From: an uncultured Bacteroidales bacterium
Lineage (GTDB): Bacteria; Bacteroidota; Bacteroidia; Bacteroidales; Paludibacteraceae
Direction: 5' to 3'
DNA length: 64,000 nt
NCBI GenBank assembly: GCA_902798015.1
Contig: CADBVL010000013.1
Span: 147-64,146, forward strand
This document shows positions 19,008 to 59,579 of the stretch, piece by piece (positions within the stretch are counted from its first letter, which is position 1; each line of letters starts with the position of its first letter). A model generated the notes under the pieces. The model did not search any database, was not told the origin of the DNA, and saw only the letters and a program-made list of their open reading frames with translations. Both the position numbers and the translations under genes were made by a program.

Positions 19008-19042
19008 CTTTCAACTTTCAACTTTCAACTTTCAACATTAAA
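19008..19042 (+). repeat. Period-7 tandem array CTTTCAA x4 + CATTAAA
   Basis: Read directly from the sequence. It fills the gap between the pgk stop (19044) and the DUF3127 start (19005). Confidence 0.9.
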
Positions 19043-19043
19043 C

Positions 19044-20294
19044 TTACTCTCCTTTAATAGCTGCTACACCCGGGAGGATCTTGCCTTCGATAGCCTCGAG
19101 GAGTGCACCTCCACCGGTAGAGATATACGATACCTGGTCTGCCAGACCGAATTTATTCACGCATGCTACAGAGTCGCCGCCGCCGATGAGCGAGAAAGCG
19201 CCGTTCTTCGTAGCTTCTGCAATCGCTTCGCCGATAGCACGGCTACCGCCGCAGAAGTTATCGAACTCGAATACGCCGGCAGGTCCGTTCCAGAGGATGG
19301 TCTTGGCGCCCTTGATGGCGTTGCGGAAGTTTTCTTGTGCCTTAGGACCTGCATCCATACCTTCCCAACCCTCGGGGATAGCATTCGACGGGAAGATCTT
19401 CTGGTTGGCGTCATTGCTGAAACTGTCGCCGCAGATAGCATCCGGAGCGAGAACGAGTTCTACGCCGTTCTTCTTCGCCAGTTCCTCTACGCCCAGCGCT
19501 ACATCGAGTTTGTCGAGTTCGACAATCGAGCCGCCGATTTCGCCGCCGTGTGCTTTGGCAAACGTATAGGTCATACCGCCGCAGAGGATCAGTTTGTCCA
19601 CTTTGCCGAGCAGGTTCTCGATGATGCCGATCTTCGAACTTACTTTCGATCCACCCATGATGGCTACGAACGGGCGCTTGATGTCGCCGAGCACAGCGTC
19701 AACAGCAGCTACCTCTTTCTCCATCAGGAAACCTAACATCTTATGGTCTGCATCGAAATAGTCTGCGATGACAGCGGTCGAAGCATGTTTGCGGTGAGCC
19801 GTTCCGAAAGCATCCATCACATAGCAGTCTGCGTATGAAGCGAGAATCTTGGCGAACTCTTTCTGACGCGCCTTCATCTCTTTCTTGGCAGTCTCGTAAG
19901 CCGGATCTTCTTTCTCGATACCTACCGGTTTGCCTTCCTCTTCCGGATAGAAACGAAGGTTCTCCAGCATCAGTACCTCGCCCGGTTTGAGTGCAGCCGC
20001 CTTGTCTTGCGCTTTCGCGCAGTCCTCTGCGAACTGAACGGGACGACCCAGTGCTGCAGCTACTGCGTCCACGATTTGGCTCAGGCTGAACTTAGCCTGT
20101 ACTTTGCCTTTGGGTTTGCCCATGTGGCTCATGATGATCAGTGCGCCGCCCTCATCGAGAATATGCTTGAGGGTGGGTAACGCACCGCGGATACGCGTGT
20201 CGTCCGTGATCTTGCCGTTCTCATCGAGAGGCACATTGAAATCGACACGTACAATCGCCTTCTTACCGGCGAATTGGAAATCTTTGATAGTCAT
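19044..20294 (-). CDS. pgk: Phosphoglycerate kinase
   Basis: Full-length 416 aa with [16 protein letters not shown] and GGGDS motifs. Confidence 0.95.
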
Positions 20295-20339
20295 AATGTG
20301 TTATATTTAGTTTGTTAATAAATTTGCTTGCCCGTTAAA

Positions 20340-20367
20340 CTTTCAACTTTCAACCTTCAATTTCACT
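20340..20367 (+). repeat. Period-7 tandem array CTTTCAA CTTTCAA CCTTCAA TTTCACT
   Basis: Read directly from the sequence. It lies upstream of pgk and overlaps the stop codon of the 20363 gene. Confidence 0.85.
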
Positions 20368-45800: not shown

Positions 45801-45842
45801 AATTATCAATTATCAATTATCAATTATCAATCATCAATTATA
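45801..45842 (+). repeat. Period-7 tandem array AATTATC x4, AATCATC, AATTATA
   Basis: Read directly from the sequence. It lies 6 nt upstream of the clpC ATG and covers the last codons and stop of the 45834 gene. Confidence 0.9.
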
Positions 45843-47783
45843 AAAATGCCATGCCAGGCCGGCGCGGAACGTGTCGCGGTTGGTCGGGTATCCGGGCATA
45901 GCCAGGTAGTCAATGTTATTCCTCATAAACAGATGGTTCAAATGCTGGTAATGGAAGAAGAACCGCAAGCGGATCGACCTCACATAGAAACTCGCATAAG
46001 CACTCATCCATGGATAGTTGCCGACGTTAATGTCGCTTTGTGTACCGAACATACCTGTCTCGGGACACAGTACCGGCGCATGGTAGCGCGTAAAATAACG
46101 TACGTCCACGCCCATCTGCGCGTCCAGCGCTCTCCACCATGTGCCGTGGTAGTATAGCCGGTGTTGTAAAATGAGCAGCGGAACCGGCATCACGCTGTCA
46201 TTCGTCGAATGTTGAACCACCATGCGGTTCTCCAGATTCACCCACGGTGTGGTGATATCAAGCCCTACATCACCCGTGATGATCTGTACGTTGCCGCGGA
46301 ACTGACGGGGCTTCCAGTCCAAAGCCGAGACATAGACGGGATTCGTCTGGTTCTCAAAACTGAAATCGATTCGCGGTTTCACCCATTTATAGGGATACGC
46401 CACCGTTGCGCCGCCGAGAAAACGATAGGTGAACCCGAAGGCGTTGTCCCATACCAGGTGGTTCGAGCGGAAACGCTGCAGGTACGGACTCGGCGTGACG
46501 CTTTTCGCATAAGCGCGTGCACTCACCAGTAAGGTCGTGTCCCCTACGCGGAACGCCGTCTCTAACTTGCCGTGGACGTCAAACTCACCGATCTTGTATC
46601 CCACCACGCATACTTGACCCTCAACGGTATAATGTACATTCGCGCCGCGATGCTTGTGTATCGCTCCGCCGACGAATGTGTTATTGGTCCAACGGTAGTC
46701 GAAAATACTGTCGTACGGCACGCTGTCAAAGAGATGCCGCTGGCATTCGTTCATCGCAAAAACCGTTGCGCCGAACTTCAACTTCCTGTTGTACGCCTCG
46801 CAGAACGTCACCGCCAGGGTGTTGCGGATCGTCAGCACGTCCGTATGGTCGTCCGTAGCCAGCGAGTCGTAGTAGATATGATCATAGAACCCCTGGTCCG
46901 AGACCTGCTCTATATAGCGCCTGTTCGAGTTGTTCGTCTCGAAGATATGGCTGAAAGTGATCAGCGGGATATACTCCACTTTCACCGTGTCGCGTTTCAC
47001 GCGCTGACCGTCTTCCACCACTTCGATCGAGTCGTGGTACTCGCGCTCTTTGGTGATCGCATACTGGTTGTGCAGAAAACCGCTCAAATACCGGTAGCCG
47101 GTCATGGCGTTCAACTGAACAGGGATATCCTCAGGACGCAGACTGCTTCGCAGGTCTTCTACATTCACCAACCCGCCGTTGTCAAACGAACTGAGTGAAC
47201 TCCAACCAAACGCGCCGTGCATGCTGTAGTGCGCGCCCGTATAACTGCCCCATACGCTGCCGCGGAACAACTTGCCTGCCGTGTTGGCATAGTGACCTAC
47301 CGAGTTCAGGTACTCCATCTCCACGCCCAGGTTCGTCTCGCGACCTAAGTTGCCGGTGAAAAGAAAACTGAGGTCGTTCTCCTCGTGTCCGGTAACAAAA
47401 CCTTTCTTGTAGGCGATGGACGAGTAAGGAGTCGTCGTGTTGAAGAAGCGTTGCTGCTGCGGCGTCACCACGTACGGCGTCAGACTGACGGCAAGCGGAT
47501 CGTCTATCGTTGTCAGACGGTCTTGAACCACGCGCGACTCAATAGGCGACACCAGAATATTGCCATTGAACGCACTGCTCAACGAATACCGCTGCTGGAT
47601 ATCGATGTCGTGGTAGTTGAGCATCGTCGTGTCGCGGAACGGGATAGTATCGGCTACCGCGCTGTAAGACGGCATCTGCCAGGTACGCACTACCGTCTTG
47701 ATACGCGGCGGCTTGGCAGCGGCCACAAGGGTCGCTGCCAACAGCACTAATACTATAAATAACCGTCTATTCAATGGTGTCAC
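45834..47783 (-). CDS. Hypothetical outer-membrane beta-barrel (putative porin family), GTG start
   Basis: Signal peptide LFIVLVLLAATLVAAA. The sequence is long and rich in Y/G/aromatic beta-strands and ends in ..AGLAWHFYN. The only in-frame start after the upstream stop is GTG 47783. Confidence 0.5.
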   Translation of the reverse strand: MTPLNRRLFIVLVLLAATLVAAAKPPRIKTVVRTWQMPSYSAVADTIPFRDTTMLNYHDIDIQQRYSLSSAFNGNILVSPIESRVVQDRLTTIDDPLAVSLTPYVVTPQQQRFFNTTTPYSSIAYKKGFVTGHEENDLSFLFTGNLGRETNLGVEMEYLNSVGHYANTAGKLFRGSVWGSYTGAHYSMHGAFGWSSLSSFDNGGLVNVEDLRSSLRPEDIPVQLNAMTGYRYLSGFLHNQYAITKEREYHDSIEVVEDGQRVKRDTVKVEYIPLITFSHIFETNNSNRRYIEQVSDQGFYDHIYYDSLATDDHTDVLTIRNTLAVTFCEAYNRKLKFGATVFAMNECQRHLFDSVPYDSIFDYRWTNNTFVGGAIHKHRGANVHYTVEGQVCVVGYKIGEFDVHGKLETAFRVGDTTLLVSARAYAKSVTPSPYLQRFRSNHLVWDNAFGFTYRFLGGATVAYPYKWVKPRIDFSFENQTNPVYVSALDWKPRQFRGNVQIITGDVGLDITTPWVNLENRMVVQHSTNDSVMPVPLLILQHRLYYHGTWWRALDAQMGVDVRYFTRYHAPVLCPETGMFGTQSDINVGNYPWMSAYASFYVRSIRLRFFFHYQHLNHLFMRNNIDYLAMPGYPTNRDTFRAGLAWHFYN

Positions 47784-47790
47784 TCACCCG

Positions 47791-47824
47791 TTCCCCTCCT
47801 TTTAGGGAGGGGGTAGGGGTAGGC
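47791..47824 (-). repeat. GC-rich hairpin element, intergenic (between GH57 stop and porin-like start)
   Basis: Sequence TTCCCCTCCTTTTAGGGAGGGGGTAGGGGTAGGC. Confidence 0.85.
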
Positions 47825-47834
47825 TTATTATTTC

Positions 47835-49100
47835 TCAACTCTTCTTCTTGAGCTTCGCCTGGAGCTGTTGAATCTCTTCCTCCTGGTTACGGATGGTCTT
47901 CAACAACTCATTCAGTTCCTCGTTTTCAATCGTCGTCGGGTATTGCTCCTCCACGCTCTGCAGGAAGTCGGACAGGATATTCATATAGTTGATGAACGCA
48001 TCGTAAGCCGACTCGTACTGCGTCTCGCCCTGGTCAATATGGTTCATGTTATGCAGGTAGTTCACATCCTGCAGACGCAGCCAGTTCGTCTTCAGATTCT
48101 TGTCTTGGCACAGGTGAACGCGCTCTGCTACGGCGTATAACTTATGAATAGCCTCTTGCTGCAAGTCGTTGCCGACGTATATGCTCAGGTCTTTCGCCTC
48201 GCCGCTCCATGTCAGCGGGTACGGACTCGACAGCACGTCGTTTGCAGTTAATTTCTTGGCTGCCTCGGACGGCGTAACAAAACCCATCTCGCGCTCCAAC
48301 GCAAAATACGGCAACGCTTTCAGGAAATCGAAGATACCCGAACCGGCGTTCTGACGGATACCGAAGGTCTCGGCGCCTACCCAGATATTAATCAGGTCGT
48401 CGCCTTCCGGCAGCGCCTTCAACTGGTCCGCATATTTCTCTGCGTCAATCGGGAAATTACCCCATCCCGGATCGGAGAAGTGGAAACTCAACTCATCGCT
48501 CAGCGCGGTGTTACGCAGTAAGACCTTCATCTTCGGTGCGCCCGCCGACTGATAGATATGGTTCGGACTCTTCCAACTGATCACGTGCTTGGCGCCCTCC
48601 GTCAGAATGGTCTTGTATCCCATCTTGTTCAACAGGTAAGCCGCCTCGTCCGTGTACAGCAACTCGGTGTTCCATACCGTCTGGGCCTTCACGCCGAGGA
48701 TGTTCTCCAGCAGGTCGCCTTGGAACTTCAGCTGTTTCTTGAACTCCGCCTCGTTGTACTCCGAAGCCAGCGAATAAGCGTACGGCGTAGCGAGGAACTC
48801 CACGCACTTGGTGGCAGCCAACTCCTTAAGGATGTCGATCATCTCCGGATTGAACTGCTCGAACATCTCGATCATCGTGCCGCTCACGCTCAGCGCGCAA
48901 TGGAACTTACCCTTACTCAGGTTGATCATGTCCTTAATCGTCGTGCACAATGGCAGATAGGACGTTTGAACCAACCAGTTAACATGCTCTTCAGTAGCCA
49001 TGTCATCGTAGTAGTAGTGATCATGACCAATCTCAAAGAAACGGTAACGCTTCAGACGGTAGGGAACATGCATCTGGAAGCAAAAACATATATTTTTCAT
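47835..49100 (-). CDS. Glycoside hydrolase family 57 (alpha-amylase-like)
   Basis: The N-terminus ICFCFQMHVPYRLKRY is typical of Bacteroidales GH57. Context is the glycogen block. Confidence 0.8.
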   Translation of the reverse strand: MKNICFCFQMHVPYRLKRYRFFEIGHDHYYYDDMATEEHVNWLVQTSYLPLCTTIKDMINLSKGKFHCALSVSGTMIEMFEQFNPEMIDILKELAATKCVEFLATPYAYSLASEYNEAEFKKQLKFQGDLLENILGVKAQTVWNTELLYTDEAAYLLNKMGYKTILTEGAKHVISWKSPNHIYQSAGAPKMKVLLRNTALSDELSFHFSDPGWGNFPIDAEKYADQLKALPEGDDLINIWVGAETFGIRQNAGSGIFDFLKALPYFALEREMGFVTPSEAAKKLTANDVLSSPYPLTWSGEAKDLSIYVGNDLQQEAIHKLYAVAERVHLCQDKNLKTNWLRLQDVNYLHNMNHIDQGETQYESAYDAFINYMNILSDFLQSVEEQYPTTIENEELNELLKTIRNQEEEIQQLQAKLKKKS

Positions 49101-49110
49101 AATATTGTTA

Positions 49111-49145
49111 AATTATCAATTATAAATTATCAATTATCAATTCTT
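49111..49145 (+). repeat. Period-7 tandem array AATTATC AATTATA AATTATC AATTATC AATTCTT
   Basis: Read directly from the sequence. It lies 10 nt upstream of the GH57 ATG and overlaps the GT4 stop. Confidence 0.9.
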
Positions 49146-54344: not shown

Positions 54345-55532
54345 ATGTTTTTTTCTTTTAAAAATAGAAGTTTGGCCATTTTGTTGGACCCGGAGAAAGC
54401 GGACCTGTCGCGCCTTTCTTTTACCGAAGAGTGCCATCCCGACTATATCTTCGTCGGCGGTTCTACCGGTGGTGACACGACGCCTTTCGTCCGAGCCCTC
54501 AAAGAGAAGATAAAACTCTCCTGCCCTTCAGGGGAGGATGGGAGAGAGCTGCCCATCATTCTTTTTCCCGGAAATTCGTCCCAGTTTACCCCCGAAGCAG
54601 ATGGTATTTTGTTCCTCTCTCTGCTCTCCGGTCGTAACCCGGAATTTCTTGTGGATCAGCAAGTTAAGGCGGCGCGTGCTATCCGCGAGTCGCAGATAAA
54701 TTTCGTCCCAACGGCATATGTCCTCATTGACGGCGGAGTGGTCACTTCTACGATGCGTGTTTCTCATACCCAACCGCTCGATCCGGCGGACATAGACACT
54801 ATCGTGGACACCTGTATCGCGGCCGAACTGATGGGTAAGAAAGCCATCTACCTGGAGGCGGGCAGCGGAGCGAAGACTCCTGTCTCGGCAGACATCATTC
54901 GGGCGGTTCGCGCGAAGACTTCCGTTACTCTCATCGTCGGCGGAGGAATACGGACGCAGGAAGCAATGCAGGCCGCATACAATGCCGGAGCTGATGTGGT
55001 GGTCATCGGCAACTATTTCGAGACTCATCCCGAGGCACTGAAAGACTTTTGCCGTAATACAGGGGTGACGTCATTATGTAATAACGACAGTGCCTCGTTG
55101 CATGAAGACGAGCGTTTCATGCGCATCGCTCTCTGCGAAGCAGAGAAAGCTCTGGCAGCAGACGAGATTCCAATCGGTTGCGTCATCGTCAGCCGGAACC
55201 AGATCATCGGACGCGGACATAACCTCACGGAGACCCTTGCTGACGTCACCGCGCACGCAGAGATACAGGCCATCACCGCCGCCTCGCAGACGCTCGGTGG
55301 CAAGTACCTTCCGGACACCACACTTTATGTCACTGTGGAACCCTGTCCCATGTGCGCAGGCGCTATCGGATGGGCGCAGGTAAACCGTATCGTGTACGGC
55401 GCACCCGATCCCAAACGGGGATACTCCGTCTATGCGCCACGCACCTTCCACCCCAAAGCAACCGTCACGGCAGGGGTGCTCGAAGCGGAATGCCGTGAAC
55501 TCATACAAGCATTTTTTAAGAACAAACGATAA
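54345..55532 (+). CDS. Fusion ORF: geranylgeranylglyceryl-phosphate-synthase-like (PcrB/GGGPS) domain + tRNA adenosine(34) deaminase TadA domain
   Basis: The N-terminal ~245 aa carry a TIM-barrel GGGPS pattern (FVGGS, ILFPG, YLEAGSGA, VGGGIR). The C-terminal ~150 aa carry HAEIQAI and PCPMCAGA deaminase zinc motifs. Confidence 0.7.
   Translation: MFFSFKNRSLAILLDPEKADLSRLSFTEECHPDYIFVGGSTGGDTTPFVRALKEKIKLSCPSGEDGRELPIILFPGNSSQFTPEADGILFLSLLSGRNPEFLVDQQVKAARAIRESQINFVPTAYVLIDGGVVTSTMRVSHTQPLDPADIDTIVDTCIAAELMGKKAIYLEAGSGAKTPVSADIIRAVRAKTSVTLIVGGGIRTQEAMQAAYNAGADVVVIGNYFETHPEALKDFCRNTGVTSLCNNDSASLHEDERFMRIALCEAEKALAADEIPIGCVIVSRNQIIGRGHNLTETLADVTAHAEIQAITAASQTLGGKYLPDTTLYVTVEPCPMCAGAIGWAQVNRIVYGAPDPKRGYSVYAPRTFHPKATVTAGVLEAECRELIQAFFKNKR
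54528..54546 (-). repeat. Degenerate hairpin-element remnant in frame in the GGGPS domain
   Basis: CTCCTGCCCTTCAGGGGAGGATGGGAGAG resembles the hairpin core. Translated as LSCPSGEDGRE just before the conserved ILFPG. Confidence 0.45.
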
Positions 55533-57433
55533 TGAATTTCTCCAATCTCCAATCTAAAATCACAAATTTCAAATATGCGCAGACGATCTTTCGGCTGAGC
55601 ATATTTGTGGTATTGGCGGCGGTCATCGTATTGATGTTTCCGCGGTACAACAACTCTTTCCGGTATCATTACGAGATAGGCAAACCATGGGGGTACTCAA
55701 CGCTCACCGCGGATTTTGACTTCCCTATCTATAAGACGGACGAGCAACTGGAGAAAGACCAGAAGCAACTGCTGTCCACCTTCGCGCCTTTCTTTAAATA
55801 TATCCCGCGCGTGCAGCGCGATGTGAAAGTGGTGTCGCTCGAGACGATGGAATGGCTGCAGGCGGAGGGCTATACGCGCATCGATATCCAGCAGCATAAA
55901 TATCCGCTGTCCGAAGTGTACACGCCGATGACTGCGCATAAGAAATTCGGTTATGACTGTGCTACCAACCTCGTGCTGGACACCGCGAAAACGGAGGAGT
56001 TCCGGACCAAACTCCTGGCGACCGTTTCGCCTACCCAGGGAATGGTGCAGAAAGGGGAGAAAATTATCGACAACGGCGATCTCGTCACCGAGCGTAACTA
56101 TCAGATATTGCAGTCGTTGCGTCGCGCCTACGACGATGAGTCACTGGGAAACAAACAGCGTACGCTCTCTATCCTCGGCGAGTCGATGTTGGTGTGCCTG
56201 TTTCTGCTGTTGTTTGTCATCTATCTCTATGTCTTCCGCATCACCTACCTGCGTGCGATACCAACGGTACTCTTCTTCTGTCTGCAGATGTTTATCGTCA
56301 TCGGCCTGGCCTGCCTCGCCTTGCGGTTCAACCTCACAGTGTATCTCATCCCGTTCGCATGGGTGCCTATCCTGACGCGTGTCTTCTTTGATTCCCGCAC
56401 CGCGCTCTTCCTGCACTTCACGACCATCCTCATCACGTCGATTGTCGTGCCTGCACCGGTGGAGTTCTTCTTCATCCAGATTGTTGTGGGCATGGTAGCG
56501 GTGTCCTCCTTGAGTGATATGACGCGCCGCGCACAACTCGTGCAAACGGCAGCATGGATTTTCCTCGCCCAGGTGATGGCTTACACGGCGATATCGTTTG
56601 CCCAGACAGGTGCGTTCTCGGCGATCGATCTATGGATGTATATCTATTTCTTCATCTGCGCACTCCTTACCGTCGGCTGTTACGGACTGATATATATGTT
56701 CGAGAAGATGTTCCACTTTATCTCGTCCATCACCCTCGTCGAACTGACGGATATCAATTCCGAACTGCTGCATACCCTTGCGGAGCGTGCACCGGGAACC
56801 TTCCAGCACTCGATGCAAGTGTCCAATCTCGCTGCGGAAGCCGCCAAGACTATCGGCGCGAATGCGCTGCTCGTGCGAACAGGCGCTCTCTATCATGACA
56901 TCGGAAAGATGACCGACCCGCTCTACTATGTAGAGAACCAGAACGGAGTCGATAACCCGCTGTTGCAGATGGACCCGCGTGACGCGGCGCAAGTAGTCAT
57001 CGCGCATGTAGCCGAAGGAGAGAAGATTGCCCGCAAAAACCACCTGCCCGAAGTGGTGGTCAATTTTATCACCACCCACCACGGAACATCCCTCGTGCGC
57101 TATTTCTATAACACCTATTGCAACGCCCATCCCAAAGAGAAAGTGGATGAGTCGCTCTTCCGCTATCCGGGAGCTAAACCCAGTACGAAAGAAGGGGCTA
57201 TCCTGATGATGGCGGACGCTATAGAAGCGCGCTCGCGCAGCCTCGATGACTTCTCCGAGGCATCCGTGACCAAAGCGGTCAATCAGATGATTGACAGTCA
57301 GATAGCGGACGGTCAGTTTGCGGAGACACCGCTCAGCTTCAAGGATGTAGAAGACATCCGCCGGGTCTTCGTCGCACGCATCACCGCCATGAACCATCAT
57401 CGCATCTCGTATCCGACCTTGAACCAAAAATAG
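55532..57433 (+). CDS. 7TM-receptor HD-domain phosphohydrolase (PgpH/YqfF-like)
   Basis: Extracellular 7TMR-HDED region, 7 TM helices and an HD domain (H....LYHDIGK..). There is a 1-nt overlap with the preceding stop. Confidence 0.8.
   Translation: MNFSNLQSKITNFKYAQTIFRLSIFVVLAAVIVLMFPRYNNSFRYHYEIGKPWGYSTLTADFDFPIYKTDEQLEKDQKQLLSTFAPFFKYIPRVQRDVKVVSLETMEWLQAEGYTRIDIQQHKYPLSEVYTPMTAHKKFGYDCATNLVLDTAKTEEFRTKLLATVSPTQGMVQKGEKIIDNGDLVTERNYQILQSLRRAYDDESLGNKQRTLSILGESMLVCLFLLLFVIYLYVFRITYLRAIPTVLFFCLQMFIVIGLACLALRFNLTVYLIPFAWVPILTRVFFDSRTALFLHFTTILITSIVVPAPVEFFFIQIVVGMVAVSSLSDMTRRAQLVQTAAWIFLAQVMAYTAISFAQTGAFSAIDLWMYIYFFICALLTVGCYGLIYMFEKMFHFISSITLVELTDINSELLHTLAERAPGTFQHSMQVSNLAAEAAKTIGANALLVRTGALYHDIGKMTDPLYYVENQNGVDNPLLQMDPRDAAQVVIAHVAEGEKIARKNHLPEVVVNFITTHHGTSLVRYFYNTYCNAHPKEKVDESLFRYPGAKPSTKEGAILMMADAIEARSRSLDDFSEASVTKAVNQMIDSQIADGQFAETPLSFKDVEDIRRVFVARITAMNHHRISYPTLNQK
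55540..55574 (+). repeat. Period-7 tandem array CTCCAAT CTCCAAT CTAAAAT CACAAAT TTCAAAT in codons 3-15 of the HD-domain gene
   Basis: Read directly from the sequence. Translated as FSNLQSKITNFKY. Confidence 0.8.
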
Positions 57434-57469
57434 TTCGTCATTACATAATCCCGTAATCCCGAAAAAAAA

Positions 57470-57504
57470 TAATTTTTAATTTTTAATTCTTAATTTTTAA
57501 TTGA
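57470..57504 (+). repeat. Period-7 tandem array TAATTTT TAATTTT TAATTCT TAATTTT TAATTGA
   Basis: Read directly from the sequence. The first 28 nt are identical to 58563..58590. The last unit supplies the TAA stop and TTG start context of dusB. Confidence 0.9.
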
Positions 57505-58565
57505 ACAACTTTCCTCTATATCTTGCCCCGATGGAGGACGTCACCGATCCGGCCTTCCGTGCGTTGTGCAAACGCTACGGAGCCGATCGTGTCTATACCG
57601 AATTCGTCAATGCCGACGCACTCGTACGCGACATCGCTTCCACGACGCGCAAACTCACCATCCATGATGCCGAGCGGCCGGTGGCAATCCAGATCTACGG
57701 GCGTGACCCCGAGTCGATGGCAGGCGCCGCGCGTATCGTCGAGCAGGCACATCCTGACTTCATCGACATCAATTTCGGCTGTCCCGTGAAGAAAGTGGCA
57801 GGCAAAGGTGCCGGAGCGGGACTGCTGCGTGATGTGCCGAAGATGCTGGATATCACCCGCGCTGTCGTCAATGCCGTCCATACACCCGTTACTGTCAAGA
57901 CCCGCCTCGGATGGGATGATAAGGACCTCATTCCCAGAGTAAATCCGCTGGGCCTCAATACTCCCTTCCCTTTAGGGGAGGGGCGGGGTGAGGCTTCTTT
58001 CTTCATCGTTGATCTCGCGGAAGCCTTGCAGGACTGCGGCATCGCCGAACTCGCCATTCACGGCCGTACACGTTCGCAGATGTACCGCGGCGAAGCGGAT
58101 TGGACACTCATCGGTGAGGTGAAGAACAACCCGCGCATGCGCATACCTGTCATAGGGAACGGGGACGTATGCACACCCGAGCGCGTAAAAGAGTGCTTCG
58201 ACCGCTACGGTGTGGATGCCGTCATGGTTGGTCGCGCTACCTTCGGCGCACCCTGGCTCTTCGCAGAGATGAAGAATTATCTGAATCCTATCACCCCTCC
58301 TTTCAGGGAGGGGACGGGGGTAGGCTTCCCTCGCACTATGTCCGACAAAGTCGCCGTGCTCAAAGAACACGTCCTTGCTTCCATACAGTGGTGCGGCAAT
58401 GACGAGCGCAAAGGAATCGTACATTCGCGGCGCCATTTTGCGGCTTCGCCTGTCTTCAAAGGACTCGATAACTTCAAGCAGACACGCATCGCCCTTCTCC
58501 GCGCGGAAACAGTAGATGAGGTCTTCACTATCATGGACGAGATAGTAGAAAAATGGGGCGATTAA
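57501..58565 (+). CDS. dusB: tRNA-dihydrouridine synthase (DusB-like), TTG start
   Basis: Motifs are LAPMEDVTDPAFR, INFGCPV.KV, VKTRLGW, HGRT and GNGD. An in-frame TAA lies immediately upstream, so TTG 57501 is the only start that keeps the conserved N-terminus. Confidence 0.85.
   Translation: MNNFPLYLAPMEDVTDPAFRALCKRYGADRVYTEFVNADALVRDIASTTRKLTIHDAERPVAIQIYGRDPESMAGAARIVEQAHPDFIDINFGCPVKKVAGKGAGAGLLRDVPKMLDITRAVVNAVHTPVTVKTRLGWDDKDLIPRVNPLGLNTPFPLGEGRGEASFFIVDLAEALQDCGIAELAIHGRTRSQMYRGEADWTLIGEVKNNPRMRIPVIGNGDVCTPERVKECFDRYGVDAVMVGRATFGAPWLFAEMKNYLNPITPPFREGTGVGFPRTMSDKVAVLKEHVLASIQWCGNDERKGIVHSRRHFAASPVFKGLDNFKQTRIALLRAETVDEVFTIMDEIVEKWGD
57961..57994 (-). repeat. GC-rich hairpin element, in frame in dusB
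   Basis: Sequence CTCCCTTCCCTTTAGGGGAGGGGCGGGGTGAGGC. Translated as TPFPLGEGRGEA. Confidence 0.85.
58292..58325 (-). repeat. GC-rich hairpin element, in frame in dusB
   Basis: Sequence CACCCCTCCTTTCAGGGAGGGGACGGGGGTAGGC. Translated as TPPFREGTGVG. Confidence 0.85.
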
Positions 58566-58597
58566 TTTTTAATTTTTAATTCTTAATTTTGAATTTT
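58563..58597 (+). repeat. Period-7 tandem array TAATTTT TAATTTT TAATTCT TAATTTT GAATTTT
   Basis: Read directly from the sequence. The first unit is the dusB stop codon and the last unit contains the TTG start of the next ORF. Confidence 0.9.
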
Positions 58598-59579
58598 GAA
58601 ACGCTTCTTCGACAGTAACGCCCTCTGGCTCTCGATGCTCATCGGTGCGCTCGGCTATAAACTCTTCCTTCCCCTCGCACCCATACTCCCGTGGCTGATT
58701 TTCTTCATGCTCTTTTTTACCTTCTGTAAAATCAATCCGCTGGATCTTCGTCTACATAAATGGCATTGGGTCGTTTTGGCAGTGCAGCTCCTTTTCTCCT
58801 TCGCCTCCTATGCGGGATTGATGTATTTTACGGGTGACAAGGTGCTCGCGCAGGGGATACTCATGTGTTTTATCATGCCTACCGCTACGGCGGCACCCAT
58901 CATAGCGGGAAAAATGGGAGGTTCCATACAGAATCTGACCACCTTTACTTTGCTTTCCAATTTCGCTACGGCCATCATTGTTCCGGCTACTTTCCCGCTC
59001 ATCAACCCCGCAGCGAACATGACTTTCTTTCCCGCTTTCCTGCTAATCCTTTCCCGCGTTGCCCCGCTCTTGTTAGGTCCCTTCTTCTCAGCCTGGCTCC
59101 TCCGGATAGCGTATCAGAGATGGACAAAAAAGGAGTTTGTATTATCTCGGGCGGCGGCGCAGATTCCTTTCTATCTCTGGGTGGCATCGATCGTTGTCCT
59201 CTCAGCCGTCGTAACGAATACAACCATACTCAATTTCCAATCTCAAATCGCCAATATACTAATTTTATTAGTATTATCTTTCTTCGCTTGCCTGCTGCAG
59301 TTCGGACTTGGCAAACTCATCGGCTATTATCTGCCGGCGCCGAGCAAGGGACGTGATTACCAGGATGTACTCATCAATCCTGCTGCGGCTCCTAAAACGA
59401 TGGAGGGCGTCTCTTCCATCACTGCCGGACAAGCGTTTGGACAGAAAAACACCTCACTTGGTGTGTGGATGGCGAATACCTATTTGGACCCGATGGCTTC
59501 ACTCGGAGCGGCGGCATATATTATTTGGCAGAATGTCTTTAATTCTGTTCAACTTTTCGTGGCGGCGCATAAAAAATAA
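58596..59579 (+). CDS. Bile acid:Na+ symporter (SBF/BASS)-like transporter
   Basis: About 9-10 TM helices and an FGQKNTSLGVWMA motif. The start is uncertain (TTG 58596 or ATG 58635). Confidence 0.6.
   Translation: MKRFFDSNALWLSMLIGALGYKLFLPLAPILPWLIFFMLFFTFCKINPLDLRLHKWHWVVLAVQLLFSFASYAGLMYFTGDKVLAQGILMCFIMPTATAAPIIAGKMGGSIQNLTTFTLLSNFATAIIVPATFPLINPAANMTFFPAFLLILSRVAPLLLGPFFSAWLLRIAYQRWTKKEFVLSRAAAQIPFYLWVASIVVLSAVVTNTTILNFQSQIANILILLVLSFFACLLQFGLGKLIGYYLPAPSKGRDYQDVLINPAAAPKTMEGVSSITAGQAFGQKNTSLGVWMANTYLDPMASLGAAAYIIWQNVFNSVQLFVAAHKK

What the first reader, a model, noticed from the sequence alone, without database searches (positions are those of the whole stretch)
57470..58597. Single genes bracketed by matching heptamer arrays (dusB by identical 28-mers; pgk; porin-like + GH57)
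dusB (57501..58565) is flanked by TAATTTTTAATTTTTAATTCTTAATTTT at 57470-57497 and at 58563-58590. The two 28-nt sequences are identical, including the same variant third unit. This argues for copying rather than independent slippage. Similarly, pgk (19044..20294) lies between CTTTCAA arrays at 19008 and 20340. The porin-like + GH57 pair (45834..49100) lies between AATTATC arrays at 45801 and 49111. Direct repeats bracketing a gene are substrates for excision or duplication and look cassette-like.
Basis: seen in the sequence. Interest (0 to 1): 0.6.

Follow-up and report, generated by a model that had tools for sequence, protein, structure and literature searches.

The report
Heptamer spacer arrays flanking dusB
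The identical 28-base repeats on both sides of dusB are two of about 290 short 7-base tandem arrays that fill the gaps between neighbouring genes in this rumen Paludibacteraceae genome; one was probably copied from the other, but the genes between such repeats are fixed housekeeping genes, not mobile cassettes.

Summary
The same 28-mer lies at 57470-57497 and 58563-58590, and these are its only two copies in the 1.95 Mb genome. The pgk and GH57+porin brackets are also real.

The cassette reading is not supported.
- The genome holds 288 period-7 arrays of about 100 unit types.
- Two thirds lie at gene boundaries. They typically run from the stop codon of one gene to the start codon of the next co-directional gene.
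- On the mRNA strand they are A/U-rich, C-poor, unstructured and rich in stop codons.
- dusB, pgk and GH57+porin are single-copy. They keep their neighbours in 11, 25 or more, and 72 related genomes.

Same-unit bracketing is only weakly enriched in this genome (3 observed, 0.77 expected). It is not enriched once this contig is excluded, nor in an independent array-rich relative (5 observed, 5.8 expected).

The closest relative keeps a different, ancestral array downstream of dusB, so the TAATTTT array there is a recent replacement identical to its upstream neighbour.

Heptamer arrays welded to stop and start codons are a known repeat class, and this scan has noted them in many other genomes. 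This case is ordinary in kind, with a modestly interesting local-copy event.

The parts
57470..57502 (+). Heptamer array 1 (TAATTTT family, 4.7 units). It lies in the 7TM-HD gene|dusB spacer, and its last unit supplies the TTG start of dusB.
   Evidence: G081 has the same array with one unit fewer and no C variant.
57446..57461 (+). Octamer TAATCCCG x2 followed by an A8 run, directly before array 1.
   Evidence: It is x3 in G081 and a related TNATTACG x4 in G082.
57501..58565 (+). dusB (tRNA-dihydrouridine synthase). Single copy, TTG start, TAA stop inside array 2.
   Evidence: Pfam Dus, E=2e-75. Single copy. Synteny. The conserved N-terminal LYLAPMEDVTD forces the TTG start.
57961..57994 (+). 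In-frame copy 1 of a 34-nt G-rich hairpin element inside dusB.
   Evidence: It lies at a hypervariable insertion site in alignment A1.
58292..58325 (+). In-frame copy 2 of the same 34-nt element inside dusB.
58563..58597 (+). Heptamer array 2 (TAATTTT family, about 5 units). It fills the whole dusB|next-gene spacer, and its first 28 nt are identical to array 1. It is a lineage-specific replacement of an AAATGAC-type array.
58596..59579 (+). Downstream membrane-protein gene (no Pfam hit). TTG start in the last unit of array 2; relatives start at an ATG inside their own array.
19008..19045 (-). TTGAAAG array (sense strand) filling the pgk stop to DUF3127-gene start spacer.
   Evidence: It has 2-4 units in G081, G082 and G085 and is absent in G083.
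20338..20365 (-). TTGAAAG-type array starting at the stop codon of the gene upstream of pgk, 44 nt before the pgk ATG.
45801..45841 (-). TTGATAA array (sense strand) between the porin stop and the ClpA/C-like ATPase start.
   Evidence: It is 14 nt (2 units) shorter in L292, the 99%-identical relative.
49111..49142 (-). TTGATAA array between the upstream gene's stop and the GH57 start.
   Evidence: The whole 49-nt gap is identical in L292, L301 and L317.

Best explanation
The two 28-mers are ordinary members of a genome-wide population of about 290 short heptanucleotide tandem arrays. In this rumen Paludibacteraceae genome and its relatives, these arrays form the stop-to-start spacers between co-directional genes. 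Each array is better read as the untranslated leader of the gene behind it than as the boundary of the gene between them. Array 1 leads dusB and array 2 leads the next membrane-protein gene. The arrays provide dusB's TAA stop and the TTG starts of both genes. On the mRNA strand such arrays are A/U-rich, C-poor, essentially unstructured, and carry stop codons in two or three frames. Shown: arrays evolve by whole-unit slippage (+/-7n), by point variants, and by occasional wholesale replacement. Shown: the downstream dusB array is such a replacement. Inferred: it was copied non-reciprocally from the array 1.1 kb upstream, by template switching or microhomology-primed repair. Inferred: the arrays persist because they give Shine-Dalgarno-independent Bacteroidota ribosomes an unstructured A/U-rich initiation region, and they terminate any reading frame that enters the spacer. 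dusB, pgk and GH57+porin are fixed single-copy housekeeping genes, not cassettes.
For: Scale and placement: there are 288 period-7 arrays of about 104 unit types. 66% lie at gene boundaries against 16% expected. In co-directional gaps the median distance from stop to array is -2 nt and from array to start +3 nt. In 104 of 164 arrays both ends lie within 12 nt of the stop and the start. Strand specificity: the five commonest unit families are oriented 50:6 with the gene (p=1e-9). G exceeds C in 102 units against 37. Composition and structure: sense strand A .40, U .34, G .18, C .075, against C .19 in other gaps. MFE is -0.034 against -0.097 kcal/mol/nt. 86% of units contain a stop, against 70% after letter shuffling and 55% on the antisense strand. 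Fixed genes: synteny is conserved and the genes are single-copy. Slippage: the GH57 gap 2 has 5 units here and 3 in L292. The pgk gaps vary by whole units among G081, G082 and G085. The octamer is x2 here and x3 in G081. Replacement and copying: G081, G082, L082, L084, L085, L087 and L088 all carry AAATGAC/AAATGGT-type arrays downstream of dusB. Only this genome has TAATTTT there, identical to its own upstream array, including a unit count and a C variant that G081's upstream array lacks. Translation context: Bacteroidia initiate without SD pairing, tuned by low structure and upstream adenines (PMC6847099). Heptamer repeats directly upstream of start codons are described in Beggiatoaceae, cyanobacteria and Bacteroidetes, including Paludibacter (PMC4679880).
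Against: The low predicted structure follows from composition alone, since shuffled arrays are equally unstructured. That the stop codon lies inside the array is partly tautological, because arrays with stops in all frames end any ORF that enters them. About a third of arrays lie inside coding regions, so much of the pattern could be a neutral mutational process filtered by selection. The T,T,C,T unit pattern with the TAATTGAA end also occurs, 35 nt exact, at an unrelated locus in two related genomes (L380, L381). TAATTCT variants are common in this family. This weakens the argument for a direct local copy.
Confidence: 0.6

Rival explanations
1. Coincidence within a family: both arrays arose or drifted independently towards the family's usual mix of TAATTTT and TAATTCT units. 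The 28-nt identity and the other same-unit brackets are then chance, picked out by looking at one window.
For: TAATTCT variants occur in most TAATTTT arrays here and in relatives. A 35-nt exact match to array 1 sits at an unrelated locus in G082 and G085. Same-unit bracketing outside contig C13 is 1 against 0.64 expected. G045 shows 5 against 5.8. Gaps at distant loci of the same genome also resemble each other (3 of 17 against 1.0 expected), which points to genome-specific unit repertoires.
Against: The ancestral downstream array had no TAATTTT seed, so slippage in place cannot create the new array. Among 91 pairs of the 14 TAATTTT-family arrays listed in this genome, the dusB pair is the only one identical over 28 nt, and it is the adjacent pair. 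Neighbouring arrays within 3 kb are slightly more alike than random pairs (mean longest shared stretch 6.47 against 5.62, p=0.001; excluding C13, p=0.03).
Confidence: 0.25
2. Cassette or recombination module: the matching direct repeats define units that are excised, duplicated or moved.
For: A 28-bp perfect direct repeat 1.1 kb apart is physically long enough for rare recombinational deletion or duplication (general knowledge of minimal homology lengths). In L088 both dusB flanks also carry one composite hairpin-plus-array element (about 80% identity over 56 nt).
Against: dusB, pgk, GH57 and the porin gene are single-copy. Gene order is conserved in every close relative examined. The genes are housekeeping genes, and pgk is glycolytic. 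There is no integrase, transposase or attC-like structure at the arrays, which are unstructured. Relatives carry different units on the two sides, or none.
Confidence: 0.03
3. Unit-specific regulatory sites: each heptamer unit is the binding site of a particular RNA- or DNA-binding factor. Neighbouring genes would share a unit because they are co-regulated.
For: Units are strand-specific and fall into a few dominant families. The same units recur across genera while their positions do not. CspB-type OB-fold proteins bind heptamer repeats, and S1/Csp/Csr were proposed for TAACTGA repeats (PMC4679880).
Against: Genes behind same-unit arrays have no functional coherence. TTGATAA precedes a ClpA-like ATPase, GH57, an aminotransferase and an ABC ATPase. 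TAATTTT-type arrays (one of the AATTCTT sister unit) precede dusB, a membrane protein, Pth, ExbD, GpsA and an LpxA-like acyltransferase. Orthologous gaps carry unrelated units in sister species. More than 100 unit types would need many factors.
Confidence: 0.1
4. Recombinational import: the segment from the 3' end of dusB to the 5' end of the next gene was replaced by homologous recombination with DNA from another strain that already carried a TAATTTT array there.
For: The first codons of the downstream gene (KRFFDSN) resemble L082 more than G081 (KKLFDSH).
Against: No relative found carries TAATTTT at that gap. It would still leave the identity with the upstream array unexplained.
Confidence: 0.05

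Closest known systems
Intergenic TAACTGA heptamer direct repeats of marine Beggiatoaceae, cyanobacteria and some Bacteroidetes (MacGregor 2015, PMC4679880)
   Same: Exact 7-nt period, 2-6 units, forward orientation, placed within a few nucleotides upstream of start codons. The phylogenetic distribution is patchy, and Paludibacter is listed among the carriers.
   Different: There, one unit dominates. Here there are about 100 unit types per genome, arrays usually start on the preceding stop codon, and a third lie inside genes.
Long simple-sequence repeats of 5-11 nt in prokaryotes, with heptanucleotides commonest (Mrazek et al. 2007, as summarised in PMC4679880), and cyanobacterial STRR heptamers (from my own knowledge)
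   Same: Short tandem heptamer arrays, mainly intergenic and lineage-specific in abundance. Slippage is the assumed mechanism, and whole-unit length differences between relatives are seen here.
   Different: Those descriptions do not report stop-to-start filling, mRNA-strand bias, or replacement of one array by a copy of its neighbour.
Xanthomonas GGGAATC and Nostoc GGGGAYT heptamer repeats (Rehm et al. 2015, PMC4692102; seen, paper not read)
   Same: Abundant intergenic heptamer arrays in particular lineages.
   Different: Those are G-rich and quadruplex-prone. The arrays here are A/U-rich, C-poor and unstructured.
Four-helix-bundle (PF05635, 23S rRNA IVS protein) gene enclosed by inverted heptamer-array arms
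   Same: A single gene bracketed by matching heptamer arrays. This genome has one at G000:C28:14936-15247, with arms that pair at -20.1 kcal/mol against -7.0 for shuffles.
   Different: Those arms are inverted and form a hairpin around a dedicated small gene. The dusB, pgk and GH57 brackets are direct repeats around ordinary housekeeping genes.
Integron gene cassettes (attC-bounded promoterless ORFs)
   Same: Only the picture of one ORF between look-alike short sites.
   Different: attC sites are imperfect inverted repeats that fold, and they need an integrase. The arrays here are direct, unstructured and genome-wide, and the genes do not move.

Membership tests
Intergenic heptanucleotide tandem arrays (LSSR / STRR / TAACTGA-type) | Tandem direct repeats with an exact 7-nt period, 3 units or more | tested here: met
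   TRF: period 7, 4.7 and 5.1 copies at dusB; 288 such arrays genome-wide.
Intergenic heptanucleotide tandem arrays (LSSR / STRR / TAACTGA-type) | Many loci per genome, enriched between genes | tested here: met
   147 per Mb; 66% at gene boundaries against 16% expected.
Intergenic heptanucleotide tandem arrays (LSSR / STRR / TAACTGA-type) | Forward orientation directly upstream of start codons (TAACTGA type) | tested here: met
   Median array-to-start distance is 3 nt. Orientation is 50:6 with the gene for the five main families.
Intergenic heptanucleotide tandem arrays (LSSR / STRR / TAACTGA-type) | One or a few unit sequences dominate the genome | tested here: not met
   About 104 unit classes; the commonest accounts for 9%.
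Intergenic heptanucleotide tandem arrays (LSSR / STRR / TAACTGA-type) | Length change by whole units between relatives (slippage) | tested here: met
   5 against 3 units (WIN against L292); 4, 2 and 3 units at the pgk D gap; 3 units against 1 at the U gap.
Mobile gene cassette (integron-like or repeat-bounded excision unit) | Presence/absence or positional polymorphism of the bounded gene among relatives | tested here: not met
   Gene order is conserved in 11 (dusB), at least 25 (pgk) and 72 (GH57+porin) related genomes.
Mobile gene cassette (integron-like or repeat-bounded excision unit) | Folded recombination site (attC-like) or terminal inverted repeats | tested here: not met
   The repeats are direct, with near-zero predicted structure.
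Mobile gene cassette (integron-like or repeat-bounded excision unit) | Associated integrase or transposase | not tested
   None was seen among the ORFs next to dusB. No genome-wide search was made.
Mobile gene cassette (integron-like or repeat-bounded excision unit) | Excision or duplication junctions in reads | not testable with these tools
Only source-sample contigs carry the exact proteins.
Phase-variable contingency locus (SSR switch) | Unit-number polymorphism within a population that switches a surface or restriction gene on and off | not testable with these tools
   No reads were available. The genes are housekeeping and the arrays lie outside the reading frames at dusB.
PF05635 four-helix-bundle gene with heptamer hairpin arms | Inverted arms enclosing a PF05635 gene | tested here: not met
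   The dusB, pgk and GH57 arrays are direct repeats around unrelated genes. The true example in this genome is on C28.

The most novel reading that the evidence does not exclude
Heptamer arrays in this clade are not only slippage products. They are propagated by a templated copy-and-replace process that targets the stop-codon-proximal spacer and prefers nearby donors. Under this reading, adjacent spacers evolve in concert: dusB here, both dusB flanks in L088, and both GH57/porin gaps switching together to AAAGTTK in G082. This would be a new kind of non-autonomous intergenic element dynamics, possibly linked to the heptamer-armed PF05635 gene.
Probability: 0.15. Interest if true: 0.7.

Novelty: new member of a known kind. 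Interest (0 to 1): 0.33.

Why it matters
The result removes a false lead: housekeeping genes between matching repeats are not cassettes. It also documents, with sister-genome comparisons, how intergenic heptamer arrays turn over. They slip by whole units, overwrite stop and start codons (forcing TTG starts), and are sometimes replaced by a copy of a neighbouring array. If the arrays serve as unstructured initiation leaders in Shine-Dalgarno-blind Bacteroidota, they would be a simple and testable solution to translating internal cistrons. They would also help explain why heptanucleotide repeats are so common between bacterial genes.

Tried and rejected
- Exact-protein look-ups for strain variants: only the source sample's own contigs came back, 100% identical.
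- Regulon idea, that the same unit marks related functions: rejected, because the downstream genes are unrelated.
- A shared 'head' (TAATCCCG x2) as the mark of a composite mobile element: only one such site lies next to an array in this genome. It is a local octamer array that also slips.
These were recovered through the GH57 loci and handle searches.
- Bacteroides-type promoter reading (a TAnnTTTG box inside array 2): considered from the sequence only. Other unit families lack it, so it was not pursued.
- Assembly artefact: rejected. An independent k=31 contig spans dusB, array 2 and the next gene, and synteny agrees in relatives.
- The link between the dominant units and the PF05635 arms (RCTAAYN) is weak. 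The main families differ from those arms.

Full report
**Observation**

The 28-mer (TAATTTT)2-TAATTCT-TAATTTT lies at 57470-57497 and again at 58563-58590. These are its only two exact copies in the 1.95 Mb, 122-contig assembly. TRF calls arrays at 57470-57502 and 58562-58597.

dusB (Pfam Dus, E=2e-75) runs 57501-58565. Its TTG start lies in the last unit of array 1, directly after an in-frame TAA. Its TAA stop is the first unit of array 2. The next gene starts at a TTG (58596) in the last unit of array 2.

The pgk and GH57+porin brackets are also as described. Read on the gene strand, the units are TTGAAAG and TTGATAA. Each array runs from the stop codon of one gene towards the start of the next.

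**Organism**

Homologues place the genome among rumen and gut Paludibacteraceae (Bacteroidales) MAGs.

**The arrays are a genome-wide feature**

- TRF finds 288 period-7 arrays of 3 or more units, median 4.3 units, in about 104 unit classes.
- 66% lie between genes or at gene edges, against 16% for random positions. 99 lie inside coding regions.
- In co-directional gene pairs the arrays fill the spacer. The median distance from stop codon to array is -2 nt and from array to called start +3 nt. In 104 of 164 arrays both ends are within 12 nt of the stop and the start.
- Unit orientation follows the gene strand: 50:6 for the five commonest families (p=1e-9).
- On the sense strand the arrays are A .40, T .34, G .18, C .075, against C .19 in other spacers.
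- They are essentially unstructured, at -0.034 against -0.097 kcal/mol/nt.
- 86% of units contain a stop triplet, against 70% after letter shuffling and 55% on the antisense strand.
- Same-genus genomes have 40-120 such arrays per Mb with other unit repertoires. G045, from another genus of the same family, has 474 per Mb.
- TTGAAAG x3 is abundant in only four of 81 family genomes and absent from the three same-genus genomes sampled.

**Are the bracketed genes cassettes? No.**

- dusB, pgk, GH57 and the porin gene are single-copy.
- The order PcrB/TadA gene, 7TM-HD gene, dusB, membrane-protein gene is kept in L001-L005 and L082-L090.
- The order Y, pgk, DUF3127 gene is kept in 25 relatives, plus G081, G082, G083 and G085.
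- The order X, GH57, porin, Clp is kept in 72 genomes.
- In those relatives the same gaps hold other arrays or none.

**Is same-unit bracketing more than chance?**

Within this genome:
- 34 genes have arrays in both flanking co-directional gaps, against 15.4 expected, so arrays cluster.
- Three of these share the unit, against 0.77 expected (p=0.04). Without contig C13 the count is 1 against 0.64 (p=0.48).
- Arrays less than 3 kb apart are slightly more alike than random pairs (mean longest shared stretch 6.47 against 5.62, p=0.001; without C13, p=0.03).

In an independent array-rich genome (G045, 430 kb, 204 arrays):
- Neighbours share units 5 times against 5.8 expected (p=0.69).

Across 72 genomes:
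- The two gaps around GH57+porin match each other in 6 genomes against 1.2 expected (p=0.0005). These represent about four independent events.
- Gaps at the distant pgk locus of the same genome also match (3 of 17 against 1.0 expected, p=0.03). Much of the effect is therefore a genome-specific unit repertoire.

Any true neighbour effect is small.

**The dusB pair does look like a copy**

The closest relative found (G081, 90% identity over 57300-58800) has the same upstream spacer, with TAATCCCG x3 instead of x2. Its TAATTTT array has three plain units and no C variant.

Downstream of dusB, G081 has an AAATGAC/AAATGGT-type array. So do G082 and L082, L084, L085, L087 and L088, and the next gene there starts at an ATG inside that array. 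In this genome that array has been replaced by TAATTTT units identical over 28 nt to the upstream array, and the next gene now starts at TTG. The ancestral sequence offered no TAATTTT seed, so slippage in place cannot explain the change. A templated copy from the neighbouring spacer is the simplest account.

Caveats:
- TAATTCT variants are common in this family.
- A 35-nt exact match to array 1 exists at an unrelated locus in G082 and G085.

Two other cases hint at concerted change of adjacent spacers:
- In L088 both dusB flanks carry one hairpin-plus-array element, about 80% identical over 56 nt.
- G082 has AAAGTTK arrays in both GH57/porin gaps, where G081, G083 and G084 keep TTGATAA in gap 1.

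**Array dynamics**

- Whole-unit differences separate close relatives. The GH57 gap 2 has 5 units here and 3 in L292. The pgk downstream gap has 4, 2 and 3 units, and the upstream gap loses 14 nt in G082.
- Arrays can also be stable. The 49-nt GH57 gap 1 is identical in four genomes.

**Likely function (inferred)**

Bacteroidia ribosomes do not use Shine-Dalgarno pairing. Initiation there is tuned by low secondary structure and upstream adenines (PMC6847099). A/U-rich, C-poor, unstructured, strand-specific spacers that end at start codons fit a role as initiation leaders for internal cistrons. They would also terminate any frame that enters the spacer. MacGregor (PMC4679880) proposed post-transcriptional roles for the analogous TAACTGA repeats.

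I found no unit-specific functional grouping of downstream genes. No expression data could be examined.

**Comparison with what is known**

This is the known class of intergenic heptanucleotide arrays. Here it has an unusually large unit repertoire and clear stop-to-start placement. This scan has already noted similar arrays in many other genomes.

The one true 'gene between matching heptamer arrays' in this genome is a PF05635 four-helix-bundle gene with inverted arms on contig C28. It differs in kind from the direct-repeat brackets of the finding.

Noticed in passing
window 57961-57994 and 58292-58325 (inside dusB); 26 sites genome-wide: A 34-nt G-rich hairpin element (core GGGAGGGG-NN-GGGGGTAGGC preceded by its C-rich complement) occurs at least 26 times, 20 of them inside coding regions on either strand. 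Two in-frame copies sit in dusB, at two sites where relatives carry other inserted peptide segments (alignment A1).
   Followed up: partly
G000:C28:14936-15247 (L168 about 1454-1481 and 1826-1868): A PF05635 (23S rRNA IVS / four-helix-bundle) gene is flanked by inverted RCTAAYN heptamer arrays. Their predicted duplex is -20.1 kcal/mol, against -7.0 +/- 2.3 for shuffles. A second, partial copy lies at the end of contig C43.
   Followed up: partly
genome-wide (G000): 99 of 288 heptamer arrays lie inside ORFs, mostly in the orientation without stop codons (for example CTTTCAA). This is often the reverse complement of the units used between genes.
   Followed up: no
genome-wide (G000): Arrays cluster. 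34 genes have arrays in both flanking co-directional gaps, against 15.4 expected from random occupancy.
   Followed up: partly
G000 C9:14522, C3:18014, C3:19493, C40:1936, C52:14123 (listing): GGTGAAA/ATGAAAA-type arrays are followed by a conserved flank resembling GGAACATATATAGAAGATTGTTGGG. These arrays appear to be the head of a larger dispersed element, possibly the about 105-nt structured repeat noted elsewhere in this window.
   Followed up: no
loci L304, L318, L319, L321, L329, L343, L345, L346 (porin|Clp gap): In several relatives the heptamer array before the ClpA/C-like gene is followed by a conserved element of about 70 nt (ATTGCCATTTTGGCAG ... GATTAGCACGATTTTTG ...) that is absent from this window. 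It may be a leader RNA or a regulatory element of the clp gene.
   Followed up: no
window 54345-55532: A single ORF joins a PcrB-family (GGGP-synthase-like) domain to a TadA/CDA-type deaminase domain. In relatives L083 and L088 an AAATGAC/AAATGGT array lies in this region.
   Followed up: no
family-level search: TTGAAAG x3 arrays are abundant in only four of 81 family genomes (G000, G045, G066, G071). They are absent from the three same-genus genomes sampled, so the distribution of this unit is patchy.
   Followed up: partly
L082 about 2400-2500 and inside its dusB; L084, L085, L087: A GGTCTTACAGCG-type repeat occurs both upstream of dusB and, in frame (as SYS..GLT peptide repeats), inside dusB of several relatives. 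dusB is a hot spot for small-repeat insertion in this clade.
   Followed up: no
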